DNA from: Trypanosoma brucei
Taxonomy: Eukaryota
Assembly (NCBI GenBank): GCA_000002445.1
Contig: AE017150.2
Span: forward strand, 544,001-608,000
Direction: 5' to 3'
Length of the DNA: 64,000 nucleotides
Every line of letters starts with the position of its first letter. Positions within the stretch are counted from its first letter, which is position 1. This document shows, piece after piece, positions 51,601-64,000 of the stretch. A program made the position numbers and the translations under genes. The notes beneath the pieces are model-generated. The model ran no database searches. It worked only from the letters and a program-made list of their open reading frames with translations, and was not told the DNA's origin.

Positions 51601-52097
51601 GATGCCCAAAGAATAGTTTAACCTTTGGATTGGGTGCTTTTCTGTTGACACAGGCAACTTATAAGATAAGATGGTTTTTATATCTGTGGAGGACATCTCT
51701 TTCCAGTTACCGCGGGAGCGACACTTCAACTCACTGACAGGTTACACCCCAATTCACTCACCGACGATGAGAAAAGCCGCAGCGCTGCGAACCTATGCCT
51801 TCATTTTCAAACTCACACCTTACTGCTGTGGCCCCAACTAGCGCTTTACTCCCTAATGAGATAAGACAGGTAATTCTGCATTATTTCCCATTATATGATC
51901 GGCACTAAGCACTCAGTTTTTTTCCTTGTCCTTTCTTTCGTCTTTCGAATGTGAGGACATTTTTCAGTTTCTTTTCTTCCTGCGGTAATACCTTACCTAT
52001 ATTTTTTAAAATAAAGAATTGACACAATAGAGTAAATATTTTCGCTTGAAGAAACCGTTGTTGATTTTCTCTTCCAGTCGTAAATTCAGCTGATCGT

Positions 52098-52508
52098 TTG
52101 AAGCATCCACCTCTCACACTGTACGTCATCATGGCTGGCGTGCTTCATGAAACTGCCACAACCGTATCATACAGGGGAGCGCTATGCAAATTAGCAGGTG
52201 TTGAGCTACAAGGGATTAATTTATCACCACCTCAAAGGTTGTGTCAGTTGGAGTTGCTGATCAGTCGTGAGATCAACTGGCTGGCAGCAGTCCTCGAGGA
52301 ATGGGAAGAAAAATATATGCTCTTCACATGTGTGCCGTACCGTGGTGTTGTCGACGCGTTTACAACCCTGCTCAGGACAATTAAGCGGCACCTGGAGACA
52401 GAGAACAGTTCAAAGGACAATGAAAAGGAGTGGGATGCGTTGCTGGCTTCTAGCATTACTGAATTTCAGGTGGAGGTTATGGAAATCGGAAAGGGTAAGA
52501 GTTACTAG
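52098..52508 (+). CDS. conserved hypothetical small protein, copy 1 of 4 in the tandem array; the conserved start is probably the internal Met at 52131
   Basis: The ORF recurs every about 3544 bp (55642, 59219, 62730) with above 95% identity. No motif recognised. Confidence 0.45.
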   Translation: MKHPPLTLYVIMAGVLHETATTVSYRGALCKLAGVELQGINLSPPQRLCQLELLISREINWLAAVLEEWEEKYMLFTCVPYRGVVDAFTTLLRTIKRHLETENSSKDNEKEWDALLASSITEFQVEVMEIGKGKSY

Positions 52509-54049
52509 CATTTTTTTCTTTTCTTTCTACCTGTACATTTAACTTTTTTTCCTCTTTTTTTTACGGTGGTATATGTTCTTTTTTTGTCACCCAATGGTTA
52601 AATTACCATGCGGTGACAAAACAAAGACTCGGTTTTTAAACTCATTGAAAGTAATAGAGTACGCGTACCTAAAAAAAAGTGTATGCGGAGTGGATTATGT
52701 ATTCTCATGAAATCAATCATTCAAATATCTAATGCAAAGCGCAAACAACTGTACGACGGAAATTTTTTTAATTTTTGCGGTGCCTCTATAAATAACTCCT
52801 TCACTAACCGTTATTGCTCGACGTAGCATCACTAGGTAAACCTTTACGCGTTCGTCTGCTTTGAATGCACTAGTTCATACAGCTCCCTAAAGTCTAACTC
52901 CGTCTCAACTCTTTCCCCACTCTTACACATTGAATAGTCTTTGGCAAAATACAAACCTTTGGGAGTCACACCTCCACAAGAAATTAGTTATAGCTAGCCT
53001 TCCCCCACTGCCCAGATTATGCATCCTTATCAATTGCCTCGGCTGATAACTTAAATTGACAGCGTAATTGAACTATCCGTCTCTGTTATGAGTCCCTGAT
53101 GGCAGTACTCGTGGTTTCCATAGGAGGGGGAACGATCCGTCCGAATAATCCAAATTTGAGGGGTTAAAGGGTAGTAAAATACATTACTTTCATCAGATGA
53201 AGAACACACGAAATGACTTAAGGGTGCGAGAGTGGCATTCTGAACCTGTAAAATGTGTACCTTGCCTGCTTCTTCATGCCATGAAATGTAAATATATCCC
53301 AAACATTCAAGTCTGCTTTGTCGATATATTTGTCACAGAAGTGTAGTAGGTTACATGGTCTGTGTGAACTGGGGATCGAAAGCTCTCAGGTGGCAATGCT
53401 TGGCGGTGTAATGTATGCATGGCCGCAGTGTTGAATACCATTCCTTATATCTACTCGATGAGTTCAGTTTTGGCGAGTTAGCCTATGATTATCTCCTCGA
53501 TGTTTTATCTCGGGGTTTAGTAGAGGTGGACACATATAAAGTTATGGGGGCGGCTGTTACCTGTGGGAGTCCTATTATAAAGTGGTAAGTACTGTGCCTC
53601 TTTTATGGGTGCTGTCAGACAAGCATTTTGTTTTGTGTGGAGACGAACTTTCCTCCATTTGCTTTGGAGGGACGATTTAAGTCACTGCTGGTTTCTGTTG
53701 TGCAATAGAAACGCGAGAGGCAAAGTGTGTCTGTTGAAGTGTGATTATTCTTTTTGGGGCGTCTTCATTACCGGGATGTTGGGAATGCTGATTACTGCTG
53801 TTTCCACTGTAGTGAGGCGAATAAACAGCTGCAAGTGTGTTTCGGATCCCTTTAGTTTTTAGTAAATCCTTTTCCGAATATGTGAATACCAAGCATACAC
53901 ATACGCAATAATTTCCAAGCTAATATTTGTAACTCTGGATATTTCACAACTTGGGTATGTATGTAGCATTGTAAATTGCTTTGCTTCTTTTGCAAAATAA
54001 TTTGTGGAAGAGTTCTTGATAAGACTGAAAGGTGGAATAATATAAAAAA

Positions 54050-62450: not shown

Positions 62451-62729
62451 ACTCACCTTCACTCTTAGACAAATGTGCAGTTTTTTTTTTAAACAGCGAG
62501 TGTAAATAAGGAAAACCAAAGAGAATAAAAATGATAATGAGTTGAATAAAAGTATATAGATTCATGAGATAAGGAAGAAGGTCTAGCAGCCTTTTCGTTG
62601 TTTTTGTTTTGTGGTAATACCTTACCTATATTTTTTTTAAAAATAAAGAATTGACACAATAGAGTAAATATTTTCGCTTGAAGAAGCCGTTGTTGATTTT
62701 CTCTTCCATTTGTAAATTCAGCTGATCGT

Positions 62730-63140
62730 TTGAAGCATCCATCTCTCACACTGTACGTCATCATGGCTGGCGTGCTTCATGAAACTGCCACAACCGTATC
62801 ATACAGGGGAGCGCTATGCAAATTAGCAGGTGTTGAGCTACAAGGGATTAATTTATCACCACCTCAAAGGTTGTGTCAGTTGGAGTTGCTGATCAGTCGT
62901 GAGATCAACTGGCTGGCAGCAGTCCTCGAGGAATGGGAAGAAAAATATATGCTCTTCACATGTGTGCCGTACCGTGGTGTTGTGGACGCGTTTACAACCC
63001 TGCTCAGGACAATTAAGCGGCACCTGGAGACAGAGAACAGTTCAAAGGACAATGAAAAGGAGTGGGATGCGTTGCTGGCTTCTAGCATTACTGAATTTCA
63101 GGTGGAGGTTATGGAAATCGGAAAGGGTAAGAGTTACTAG
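62730..63140 (+). CDS. conserved hypothetical small protein, array copy 4
   Basis: Repeat of 52098..52508. It shares the QLEL/LFTC variants with copy 1 rather than with copies 2 and 3. Confidence 0.45.
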   Translation: MKHPSLTLYVIMAGVLHETATTVSYRGALCKLAGVELQGINLSPPQRLCQLELLISREINWLAAVLEEWEEKYMLFTCVPYRGVVDAFTTLLRTIKRHLETENSSKDNEKEWDALLASSITEFQVEVMEIGKGKSY

Positions 63141-64000
63141 CATTTTTTTCTTTTCTTCCTAAATGGACATTTAACTTTTTTTCCTCTTTTTTTTACGGTG
63201 GTATATCCTCTTTTTTTGTCACCCAATGGTTAAATTACCATGCGGTGACAAAACAAAGACTCGGTTTTTAAACTCATTGAGAATAATAGAGTACGCATAC
63301 CTAAAAAAAAGTGTATGCGGAGTGGATTATGTATTCTCATGAAATCAATCATTCAAATATCTAATGCAAAGCGCAAACAACTGTACGACGGAAATTTTTT
63401 TAATTTTTGCGGTGCCTCTATAAATAACTCCTTCACTAACCGTTATTGCTCGACGTAGCATCACTAGGTAAACCTTTACGCGTTCGTCTGCTTTGAATGC
63501 ACTAGTTCATACAGCTCCCTAAAGTCTAACTCCGTCTCAACTCTTTCCCCACTCTTACACATCGAATAGTCTTTGGCAAAATACAAACCTTTGGGAGTCA
63601 CACCTCCACAAGAAATTAGTTATAGCTAGCCTTCCCCCACTGCCCACATTATGCATCCTTATCAATTGCCTCGGCTGATAACTTAAATTGACAGCGTAAT
63701 TGAACTATCCGTCTCTGTTATGAGTCCCTGATGGCAGTACTCGTGGTTTCCATAGGAGGGGGAACGATCCGTCCGAATAATCCAAATTTGAGGGGTTAAA
63801 GGGTAGTAAAATACATTACTTTCATCAGATGAAGAACACACGAAATGACTTAAGGGTGCGAGAGTGGCATTCTGAACCTGTAAAATGTGTACCTTGCCTG
63901 CTTCTTCATGCCATGAAATGTAAATATATCCCAAACATTCAAGTCTGCTTTGTCGATATATTTGTCACAGAAGTGTAGTAGGTTACATGGTCTGTGTGAA

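What the first reader, a model, noticed from the sequence alone, without database searches (positions are those of the whole stretch)
51975..64000. Tandem array of two-gene units (small conserved ORF plus ISG65-like surface glycoprotein) with a 3544 bp period, running off the window edge
Three complete and one partial head-to-tail units are more than 95% identical. Each unit carries a 436-aa type-I membrane glycoprotein whose size, signal peptide, single TM and lysine-rich 26-aa tail match ISG65 (the bloodstream-stage invariant surface glycoprotein reported to bind complement C3). Each unit also carries a co-amplified 125 to 136-aa ORF of unknown function. Similarity to flanking sequence begins abruptly at about 51975, which marks the array boundary. 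The array continues past position 64000, so the copy number is underestimated here.
Basis: partly seen in the sequence, partly recalled or inferred. Interest (0 to 1): 0.6.

Follow-up and report, generated by a model that had tools for sequence, protein, structure and literature searches.

The report
Known ISG65 tandem gene array
This is the left part of the already published tandem array of ISG65 genes (the complement C3 receptor) on chromosome 2 of Trypanosoma brucei brucei TREU927; the small ORF repeated with each copy is real as an ORF, but whether it is a gene is unproven.

Summary
From about 51979 to the window end there are three complete units and one partial head-to-tail unit, with a period of 3544-3546 bp and 95.8-99.0% identity. 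The three 436-aa products are not merely ISG65-like. They are exact matches to three consecutive TREU927 ISG65 proteins, XP_951582 to XP_951584. By position these are Tb927.2.3270 to Tb927.2.3290, because Jackson 2010 numbers the copies from Tb927.2.3270 at the left. They hit PDB ISG65 chains at E about 1e-225. The array, its ~3550-bp BamHI unit, its variable copy number (6 in T. b. brucei, 12 in T. b. gambiense), its recombination mosaics and its C3-receptor function are all published. The finding is therefore already known.

The "two-gene unit" reading is only partly supported. With an ATG start the small ORF is 125 aa in all four copies; the 136-aa form needs a TTG start. Its only relatives are in T. 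brucei subspecies, where it is labelled "hypothetical protein, unlikely". ISG65 specialists place such ORFs inside the ISG65 3'UTR. Against that, it scores like a real gene on codon usage and varies less than its flanks. The array's register also shows that its founding copy lay upstream of ISG65. I put the chance that it is a real gene at about 0.3.

The parts
51979..64000 (+). Left part of the ISG65 tandem array: three complete units and one partial unit, cut by the window edge
   Evidence: Repeat spacing of 3543-3546 bp; unit identities 95.8-99.0%; left junction seen in the alignment
51979..55522 (+). Unit 1: small ORF copy 1 plus ISG65 copy 1, which by position is Tb927.2.3270
   Evidence: The product is an exact match to XP_951582. 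The gene name is a positional inference from Jackson 2010, who number the copies from Tb927.2.3270 at the left
55523..59066 (+). Unit 2
   Evidence: the product is an exact match to XP_951583
59067..62610 (+). Unit 3
   Evidence: the product is an exact match to XP_951584
62611..64000 (+). Unit 4, partial (first 1390 bp, including small ORF copy 4)
   Evidence: 99.1% identical to unit 2 over 1390 bp
54050..55360 (+). ISG65 CDS copy 1, 436 aa, carrying one version of the L2-loop patch (the other version is in copies 2 and 3)
57594..58904 (+). ISG65 CDS copy 2, 436 aa
61140..62450 (+). ISG65 CDS copy 3, 436 aa
52131..52508 (+). Small ORF copy 1 (125 aa from ATG). It lies upstream of the first ISG65, so it is not in any ISG65 3'UTR
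55675..56052 (+). Small ORF copy 2 (125 aa), 315 nt downstream of the ISG65 copy 1 stop
59219..59596 (+). Small ORF copy 3 (125 aa)
62763..63140 (+). Small ORF copy 4 (125 aa)
54470..54658 (+). Hypervariable patch of ISG65 (codons 141-203, covering loop L2, residues 154-196). Equivalent patches lie at 58014-58202 and 61560-61748
   Evidence: Copy 1 versus copy 2: dS 1.13 and dN 0.435 here, against dS of 0.015 or less in the backbone. This is the diversity peak across 11 units.
54095..54145 (+). Second variable patch (codons 16-32, the end of the signal peptide and the mature N-terminus)
   Evidence: dS 0.35 and dN 0.22 over codons 1-32
57388..57393 (+). BamHI site, one per unit (also at 53844 and 60934)
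   Evidence: Spacing of 3544 and 3546 bp matches the published ~3550-bp BamHI fragment
56053..56108 (+). The strongest polypyrimidine tracts of the inter-CDS region, directly after the small ORF stop (next AG at 56169). Candidate trans-splicing and polyadenylation signal
   Evidence: sequence scan only; use in vivo not tested
57192..57209 (+). Polypyrimidine tract with AG at 57212, about 380 nt upstream of the ISG65 ATG. Candidate ISG65 splice-acceptor signal
   Evidence: sequence scan only

Best explanation
The region is the first three and a half units of the ISG65 gene array on chromosome 2 of Trypanosoma brucei brucei TREU927. The published array is Tb927.2.3270-3320, six genes.

Each 3.54-kb unit encodes one ISG65. 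This is a bloodstream-stage type-I membrane glycoprotein whose curved three-helix-bundle ectodomain binds the thioester domain of complement C3, C3b and C3d. Its loops contact the CUB domain of C3b. Published work shows this slows complement-dependent clearance.

The units lie head to tail in one polycistronic transcription unit, and amplification raises mRNA and protein dose. Unequal crossing-over changes the copy number between isolates. Gene conversion keeps the backbone and the inter-CDS sequence nearly identical, while old, highly diverged versions of the L2 loop and the N-terminus are shuffled between copies as mosaics.

The 125-aa ORF travels with the unit. The duplicated segment runs from about 150 nt upstream of this ORF to about 160 nt downstream of the ISG65 stop. 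The ORF therefore precedes the first ISG65 and follows every ISG65 except the last. In internal units it lies in what specialists describe as the ISG65 3'UTR.

Most likely it is not an independent, translated gene. This last point is inferred, not shown.
For: Identity of ISG65:
- Exact-sequence matches to XP_951582, XP_951583 and XP_951584 on a 1,193,948-bp TREU927 contig.
- PDB ISG65 chains 7pi6, 7zgj and 8ovb at E 8.5e-226 to 8.8e-181.
- Pfam ISG65-75 at 333-338 bits against a cut-off of 25.1.
- Hydrophobic segment at residues 385-410 and a 26-aa tail.
- The six C3d-contact residues listed in the published contact table (R63, F73, Y209, L286, N290, Y293) are present in all three copies.

Array:
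- Period and identities.
- One BamHI site per unit, spaced 3544 and 3546 bp, against the published 3550-bp BamHI fragment.
- Published array of 6 copies in T. b. brucei and 12 in T. b. gambiense, with GARD breakpoints.
- The same left junction in T. b. gambiense and T. equiperdum.

Mosaic structure:
- dS 1.13 in codons 141-203 against 0.015 or less elsewhere.
- Diversity peaks at 24.6% in that patch across 11 units.
- Published: variation is confined to blocks and forms mosaics.

Function: C3 receptor, knock-out phenotype and structures. Bloodstream-form up-regulation is reported for these gene IDs.

Register of the unit: in T. b. gambiense, homology ends 38 to about 160 nt after the last ISG65 stop, and no small ORF follows.

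Small ORF as a passenger:
- Relatives only in T. brucei subspecies.
- Labelled 'unlikely' in DAL972 and absent from the TREU927 protein series.
- Dropped by Macleod et al. as lying inside the ISG65 3'UTR.
- 4 of 17 copies are frameshifted.
- Low-confidence fold, pLDDT 59, with no structural match.
Against: Nothing argues against the ISG65 array identity.

Several results argue against the 'passenger, non-coding' status of the small ORF:
- An ATG ORF of at least 125 codons appears on the + strand in only 1.2% of dinucleotide shuffles of the 2233-nt inter-CDS region.
- Its codon log-odds score (0.133-0.154 bits per codon) exceeds all 124 stop-free control stretches (mean -0.136, maximum 0.130). 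It sits at the level of real genes of the window (0.168 +/- 0.105).
- Substituted columns are 16 of 373 in the ORF against 70 of 592 in its flanks (Fisher p = 4e-5).
- In-frame pN/pS is 0.34, against 0.61 and 1.18 in the other two frames.
- The first copy lies upstream of the first ISG65, outside any ISG65 3'UTR.
- A polypyrimidine tract plus AG lies about 55 nt upstream of its ATG with no intervening ATG, and the start context has A at -3 and G at +4.
- Single-sequence AlphaFold gives four helices at pLDDT 59.4, against 40.0 for one chance ORF used as a control.
Confidence: 0.9

Rival explanations
1. True two-gene unit. The 125-aa ORF is a real protein-coding gene restricted to the T. brucei group. 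It is trans-spliced on its own at the polypyrimidine/AG signal about 55 nt upstream of its ATG, encodes a small soluble helical protein, and is co-amplified with ISG65.
For: - The ORF is longer than chance allows (P = 0.012).
- Its codon score is in the real-gene range and above all 124 null stretches.
- It has roughly a third of the substitution density of its flanks (p = 4e-5).
- pN/pS is 0.34 in frame only.
- 7 synonymous against 8 non-synonymous changes, where 22-29% synonymous is expected (p = 0.03-0.11).
- 13 of 17 copies from three genomes are intact.
- The founding copy lies upstream of ISG65, in a 5.6-kb stretch that otherwise has no gene.
- The start context is favourable and a short 5'UTR would carry no upstream ATG.
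- pLDDT is 59 against 40 for a control ORF.
Against: - No relative outside T. brucei subspecies in two very large searches.
- Annotated 'hypothetical protein, unlikely' and left out of the TREU927 protein set.
- Specialists with a northern blot and transcript data place it inside the ISG65 3'UTR.
- Four copies carry 1-2-nt frameshifts, and none of the indels is a multiple of 3.
- The variable sites are few (15-16), and copies related by gene conversion are not independent.
- Other invariant runs in the inter-CDS region (110 and 101 nt) are longer than those in the ORF.
- The fold is not confident and matches nothing.
Confidence: 0.3
2. The low diversity over the small ORF reflects a non-coding function of that stretch of the ISG65 3'UTR, for example binding sites that control stage-specific mRNA stability. 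The open frame is incidental.
For: - Diversity is lowest in the 3' two-thirds of the ORF (0-1.6% against an inter-CDS mean of 3.15%).
- The published view is that the ORF lies in the 3'UTR.
- ISG65 mRNA is strongly stage-regulated.
- Trypanosome gene regulation is mainly post-transcriptional and works through 3'UTRs (established knowledge).
Against: - No Rfam match.
- No unusual RNA folding: z = +0.53.
- This reading does not explain the frame-specific pN/pS or the gene-like codon score.
- The last ISG65 copy of the T. b. gambiense array lacks this stretch altogether, so it is not needed by every ISG65 mRNA.
Confidence: 0.25
3. The repeat is an assembly artefact: a single ISG65 gene wrongly expanded, or the copy number wrongly reconstructed.
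For: Near-identical 3.5-kb repeats are hard to assemble. The T. b. gambiense and T. equiperdum loci show irregular units and fragmented gene calls.
Against: - The units differ at specific sites and carry two very different L2 patches.
- Independent cosmid mapping found seven distinct 3550-bp BamHI fragments.
- Arrays are present in three separate genome assemblies with the same left junction.
- Deleting the array abolishes ISG65.
Confidence: 0.02

Closest known systems
ISG65 tandem array of T. b. brucei TREU927 chromosome 2 (Tb927.2.3270-3320), described by Jackson et al. 2010 (PMC2854126) and Macleod et al. 2022 (PMC9424271)
   Same: It is this locus. The protein sequences are exact matches. 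The unit length and BamHI spacing agree. The mosaic variation lies in the extracellular domain.
   Different: Nothing differs. The window simply stops inside unit 4 of 6.
ISG65 arrays of T. b. gambiense DAL972 (Tbg972.2.1130 onwards; 12 copies) and T. equiperdum
   Same: The same unit, the same left junction and the same small ORF; 92-97% identity to the window's unit.
   Different: There are more copies. Some units are truncated or rearranged, and some ISG65 and small-ORF copies are frameshifted.
ISG75 and ISG64 families and other ISG65-75 domain proteins (Pfam PF11727)
   Same: The same Pfam domain and type-I topology, and they are also multi-copy bloodstream-stage genes.
   Different: These are different paralogous families on other chromosomes (chromosome 5 loci are listed). 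The window's proteins are ISG65 proper, not ISG75 or ISG64.
ORFs annotated 'hypothetical protein, unlikely' in T. brucei genomes
   Same: The small ORF carries exactly this label in DAL972. As a class these ORFs show almost no productive translation (median ribosome release score 0.19 against 83.9 for all annotated genes). One ribosome-profiling study deleted them when they lay in another gene's 3'UTR without their own spliced-leader reads.
   Different: This one scores like a real gene on codon usage and is less variable than its flanks. That would not be expected of a chance ORF, although I did not score other members of the class.

Membership tests
ISG65 (invariant surface glycoprotein 65, Pfam PF11727 ISG65-75) | Sequence match to the ISG65-75 domain above Pfam's gathering score | tested here: met
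   332.8 and 338.2 bits against a cut-off of 25.1; E 2e-99 and 4.5e-101
ISG65 (invariant surface glycoprotein 65, Pfam PF11727 ISG65-75) | Identity with experimentally characterised ISG65 proteins | tested here: met
   Exact matches to TREU927 ISG65 XP_951582, XP_951583 and XP_951584. Close to the crystallised ISG65 chains 7pi6, 7zgj and 8ovb, E 8.5e-226 to 8.8e-181
ISG65 (invariant surface glycoprotein 65, Pfam PF11727 ISG65-75) | Type-I membrane topology: N-terminal signal peptide, one transmembrane helix, and a short cytoplasmic tail with lysines | tested here: met
   Hydrophobic N-terminus MMKYLLVFAIIATRI...; hydrophobic run at residues 385-410; 26-aa tail with 4 Lys. This rests on sequence inspection; no dedicated predictor was run
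ISG65 (invariant surface glycoprotein 65, Pfam PF11727 ISG65-75) | Tandem array on chromosome 2 with a unit of about 3.55 kb and one BamHI site per unit | tested here: met
   Period 3544-3546 bp. BamHI sites at 53844, 57388 and 60934. Published description
ISG65 (invariant surface glycoprotein 65, Pfam PF11727 ISG65-75) | Binding of complement C3, C3b and C3d | not testable with these tools
   Indirect only. The six contact residues visible in the published contact table (R63, F73, Y209, L286, N290, Y293) are conserved in all three copies. Binding was shown experimentally for close relatives
ISG65 (invariant surface glycoprotein 65, Pfam PF11727 ISG65-75) | Bloodstream-stage-specific expression | not testable with these tools
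   From the literature only: Tb927.2.3270 is 6.9-fold higher in cultured bloodstream forms, and a western blot shows bloodstream-form expression only
Independent protein-coding gene (small 125-aa ORF) | Open frame maintained in all copies and subspecies | tested here: inconclusive
   13 of 17 copies are intact and 4 have 1-2-nt frameshifts. At 96-98% identity between copies, an open frame would largely persist even without selection
Independent protein-coding gene (small 125-aa ORF) | Codon usage like that of real genes in the same genome | tested here: met
   0.133-0.154 bits per codon, against real genes at 0.168 +/- 0.105 and 124 null stretches at -0.136 +/- 0.087 with a maximum of 0.130
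Independent protein-coding gene (small 125-aa ORF) | Purifying selection at the protein level | tested here: inconclusive
   pN/pS 0.34 in frame. 7 synonymous against 8 non-synonymous changes, binomial p 0.03-0.11. There are few sites, and the copies are not independent
Independent protein-coding gene (small 125-aa ORF) | Homologues in other species | tested here: not met
   Only T. b. gambiense and T. equiperdum proteins were found. Unannotated DNA of T. congolense and T. vivax could not be searched
Independent protein-coding gene (small 125-aa ORF) | Own spliced-leader acceptor site, own poly(A) site, ribosome footprints or peptides | not testable with these tools
   Only sequence signals were seen. 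The published statement places such ORFs within the ISG65 3'UTR. Searches of supplementary tables gave no entry

The most novel reading that the evidence does not exclude
The 125-aa ORF is a real orphan gene restricted to the T. brucei group. It was amplified together with ISG65 and has been overlooked because annotators and ISG65 researchers treat it as 3'UTR.

If so, every whole-array ISG65 knock-out also removes all copies of a second gene, or all but one. The main text of the knock-out paper contains none of the terms I searched for an add-back (add-back, addback, re-express, rescue).
Probability: 0.3. Interest if true: 0.35.

Novelty: already known. Interest (0 to 1): 0.12.

Why it matters
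The array itself is textbook material for trypanosome biology. ISG65 is the complement C3 receptor, a diagnostic antigen, and a model for the trafficking of ubiquitylated surface proteins (the last two points are from my own knowledge, not tested here). Its tandem, mosaic organisation has been in print since 2010, so re-finding it adds nothing.

The one point of modest value is the small ORF. If it is translated, the published array-deletion phenotype would rest on the loss of two genes rather than one. The ORF would also be an example of a young lineage-specific gene riding on a surface-antigen amplification. Public spliced-leader, ribosome-profiling and proteomic data can settle this cheaply.

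Tried and rejected
- **Tandem Repeats Finder** found only microsatellites, because its period limit is 500. The repeat finder and my own alignments were used instead.
- **Exact-product look-ups for TREU927** (ISG65 copy 3 and the PPR neighbour) found nothing in the gene-position index. I therefore could not read the TREU927 sequence beyond 64000 or obtain chromosomal coordinates. The T. b. gambiense and T. equiperdum loci were used instead.
- **Intermediate gene IDs** (Tb927.2.3265 to Tb927.2.3315): no paper mentions them.
- **Supplements of the Jensen 2014 ribosome-profiling paper**: no entry for the locus.
- **Searches for the ISG65 mRNA or UTR length** gave no number. The northern blot in Macleod's supplement is an image I cannot read.
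- **Structured RNA or snoRNA in the inter-CDS region**: no Rfam match at E up to 0.1. The conserved 260 nt fold no better than shuffles (z = +0.53). Rejected.
- **Small ORF as a diverged fragment of ISG65**: best BLASTP E = 12. Rejected.
- **Fold-based function for the small ORF**: the model has pLDDT 59, and the best Foldseek hit against PDB has E = 2.6. Uninformative.
- **Other hidden genes between the Got1/Sft2-like gene and the array**: no + strand ATG ORF above 73 codons in 48448-51978.
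Full report
**1. The observation**

Direct-repeat search over 45000-64000 finds families of three or four copies spaced 3544, 3545-3546 and 3543 bp apart. Nothing to the left of that point matches the unit by blastn.

From that boundary the units are 95.94% (U1-U2), 95.75% (U1-U3) and 98.79% (U2-U3) identical. The partial fourth unit is 98.3-99.0% identical to the others.

Three 436-aa ORFs lie at 54050-55360, 57594-58904 and 61140-62450. 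The small ORF has four copies. The '136-aa' form exists only with a TTG start, which is a bacterial-code artefact. From the first ATG all four copies are 125 aa, at 52131, 55675, 59219 and 62763.

**2. What the large ORF is**

- The product matches PDB chains named '65 kDa invariant surface glycoprotein' (7pi6, 7zgj) and 'ISG65 G' (8ovb), at E 8.5e-226 to 8.8e-181.
- It matches Pfam PF11727 (ISG65-75) at about 335 bits against a cut-off of 25.1.
- An exact-sequence look-up shows that the three products are XP_951582, XP_951583 and XP_951584 of T. b. brucei TREU927, on a contig of 1,193,948 bp. XP_951585 and XP_951586 are two further copies.
- The proteins have a hydrophobic N-terminus, a hydrophobic run at residues 385-410, and a 26-aa tail with four lysines.
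- The six C3d-contact residues visible in the published contact table (R63, F73, Y209, L286, N290, Y293) are present in all three copies.

The window is therefore TREU927 chromosome 2, and these are ISG65 genes proper. By position they are Tb927.2.3270, Tb927.2.3280 and Tb927.2.3290, because Jackson 2010 numbers the copies from Tb927.2.3270 at the left.

**3. What is already published**

Jackson et al. [quoted passage not shown] They report 6 copies in T. b. brucei and 12 in T. b. gambiense, at least five GARD breakpoints, and an alignment that extends into the '3' UTR'.

Macleod et al. 2022 state the following:
[quoted passage not shown] The window has exactly one BamHI site per unit, at 53844, 57388 and 60934, spaced 3544 and 3546 bp apart.

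ISG65 is a receptor for complement C3, C3b and C3d. [quoted passage not shown] A later supplementary table lists all six genes, Tb927.2.3270-3320, as ISG65. Nothing about the array is new.

**4. Internal anatomy**

Copy 1 differs from copies 2 and 3 in two sharply bounded patches.

| Region (copy 1 versus copy 2) | dS | dN |
|---|---|---|
| Codons 1-32 (the differing residues lie at 16-32) | 0.35 | 0.22 |
| Codons 141-203 | 1.13 | 0.435 |
| Rest of the gene | 0.015 or less | 0.004 |

The second patch covers loop L2 (residues 154-196). This loop is disordered in the crystal structure, and these loops are later reported to contact the CUB domain of C3b.

Across 11 units from three genomes the ISG65 CDS is the most variable part of the unit, with a mean pairwise diversity of 8.05% and a peak of 24.6% in the L2 patch. 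The inter-CDS region averages 3.15%. The pattern is old sequence variants retained in a backbone that gene conversion keeps homogeneous. This agrees with the published mosaics.

**5. Register of the unit**

The T. b. gambiense and T. equiperdum arrays start at the same left junction as the window. At the right end of the T. b. gambiense array, strong similarity to the unit stops 38 nt after the last ISG65 stop. A weaker resemblance fades at about 160 nt, in a polypyrimidine tract. No small ORF follows; the next called gene encodes an unrelated 163-aa product.

The duplicated segment is therefore [about 150 nt - small ORF - about 1.5 kb - ISG65 - about 160 nt]. The small ORF precedes the first ISG65 and is absent after the last. 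In the single-copy ancestor it lay upstream of ISG65, not in its 3'UTR. This step is inferred from the junctions.

**6. Is the small ORF a gene? Evidence against**

- Its only relatives, in a word-indexed search of 5.8 billion proteins and a full HMMER search of 1.84 billion representatives, are T. b. gambiense and T. equiperdum proteins.
- In DAL972 they are annotated 'hypothetical protein, unlikely'. In TREU927 nothing is annotated between the consecutively numbered ISG65 proteins.
- As a class, 'hypothetical unlikely' ORFs show essentially no productive translation. One ribosome-profiling study deleted them on criteria that include lying in another gene's 3'UTR.
- 4 of 17 copies carry 1-2-nt frameshifts. 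The two in T. equiperdum may be assembly errors, since ISG65 calls are fragmented there too.
- The AlphaFold model is of low confidence (pLDDT 59.4, pTM 0.42) and matches nothing in the PDB.

**7. Is the small ORF a gene? Evidence for**

- An ATG ORF of at least 125 codons occurs on the + strand in only 1.2% of dinucleotide-preserving shuffles of the 2233-nt inter-CDS region.
- I trained a codon log-odds model on 12 long genes of the window, with stop codons excluded. The ORF scores 0.133-0.154 bits per codon. Leave-one-out chunks of real genes score 0.168 +/- 0.105. The 124 stop-free control stretches of at least 90 codons score -0.136 +/- 0.087, and none reaches the ORF's score.
- Across 17 copies, substituted columns number 16 of 373 in the ORF against 70 of 592 in the flanks (Fisher p = 4e-5). 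Synonymous to non-synonymous changes are 7 to 8, where 22-29% synonymous is expected (p = 0.03-0.11).
- On the first 14 copies, pN/pS is 0.34 in frame, against 0.61 and 1.18 in the other two frames.
- A polypyrimidine tract plus AG lies about 55 nt upstream of the ATG with no intervening ATG. The start context is A at -3 and G at +4.
- A single control chance ORF folds worse, at pLDDT 40.0.

Caveats apply to all of this. The variable sites are few, and copies linked by gene conversion are not independent. Two invariant runs elsewhere in the inter-CDS region (110 and 101 nt) are longer than any in the ORF.

I conclude that the status is unresolved, with about 0.3 probability of a real gene.

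**8. Alternatives examined**

- **Structured RNA or snoRNA:** not supported. There is no Rfam match, and the folding z-score is +0.53.
- **Derivation of the small ORF from ISG65:** not supported.
- **Assembly artefact:** excluded by the distinct variants between units, the independent cosmid and BamHI data, and three separate assemblies.

**9. Surroundings**

All large ORFs in the window are on the + strand, as expected for a trypanosome polycistronic unit. Upstream neighbours, nearest first:
- a Got1/Sft2-like protein at 47959-48447;
- a PPR protein at 43698-46709;
- a Gar1/Naf1-domain protein at 41354-42865;
- a fatty-acid desaturase at 35281-36513;
- a ClpB/Hsp104-type AAA+ protein at 31019-33457.

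Between the Got1/Sft2-like gene and the array lie 3.5 kb with no + strand ATG ORF above 73 codons.

**10. Verdict**

The ISG65 interpretation is correct and can be sharpened to exact gene identity. The 'two-gene unit' is the only part that goes beyond the literature, and it is unproven, with mixed evidence. Overall interest is low.

Noticed in passing
window 54470-54658 versus 58014-58202 and 61560-61748: The L2-loop patch of ISG65 copy 1 differs from copies 2 and 3 at dS 1.13 and dN 0.435, while the rest of the gene has dS of 0.015 or less. The N-glycosylation sequons also differ: N176 and N194 in copy 1, N155 in copies 2 and 3. These are old alleles kept inside a homogenised backbone. The pattern is known in outline from the published mosaics.
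   Followed up: yes
window 48448-51978: A 3.5-kb stretch between the Got1/Sft2-like gene and the array has no + strand ATG ORF longer than 73 codons and no match to the repeat unit. That is unusually long for a gene-free interval in a compact trypanosome genome. It may be a long 3'UTR.
   Followed up: partly
window 56053-56108 (and the equivalent positions in the other units): The strongest polypyrimidine tracts of the inter-CDS region start at the first base after the small ORF stop, with the next AG at 56169. If this is used as a splice-acceptor signal, it would imply RNA processing inside what is called the ISG65 3'UTR.
   Followed up: no
window 52060-52075, 55604-55620, 59148-59165, 62692-62710 (approximate): The candidate acceptor 'TTCTCTTCCAG' upstream of the small ORF is intact in units 1 and 2 but reads 'CCAT' in units 3 and 4. 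The next AG ('TTCAG'), 12 nt downstream, is kept in all four.
   Followed up: no
L001 4688-6298 and 13398-17107; L003 2203-6309: The T. b. gambiense array contains irregular units. One is a 283-bp unit start, followed by about 450 bp without a match and then unit position 2662 onward. Another has ISG65 split into 119-aa and 286-aa calls. A third jumps from unit position 1354 back to 890. These could be real rearrangements or assembly gaps.
   Followed up: no
L002 (T. equiperdum CM010673) 9131-13246: ISG65 calls are fragmented (186 and 202 aa), and two small-ORF copies carry single-base indels. This may reflect indel errors in the assembly rather than pseudogenes.
   Followed up: no
window 1499-1957 (- strand): This stop-free stretch has the highest codon score of all 124 'null' stretches (0.130 bits per codon). 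It could be a real minus-strand coding segment near the window's left end; a 212-aa minus-strand ORF lies at 669-1307.
   Followed up: no
window 47131-47207 and 48634-48664: Microsatellites flank the Got1/Sft2-like gene: (TATTATTATTGT)x2.2, (GT)n and (TA)x15.5.
   Followed up: no
PMC9424271 (literature, not sequence): The ISG65 knock-out removed the entire tandem array on both alleles. The main text contains none of the add-back terms I searched for (add-back, addback, re-express, rescue). All inter-ISG65 copies of the small ORF would have been deleted as well.
   Followed up: partly
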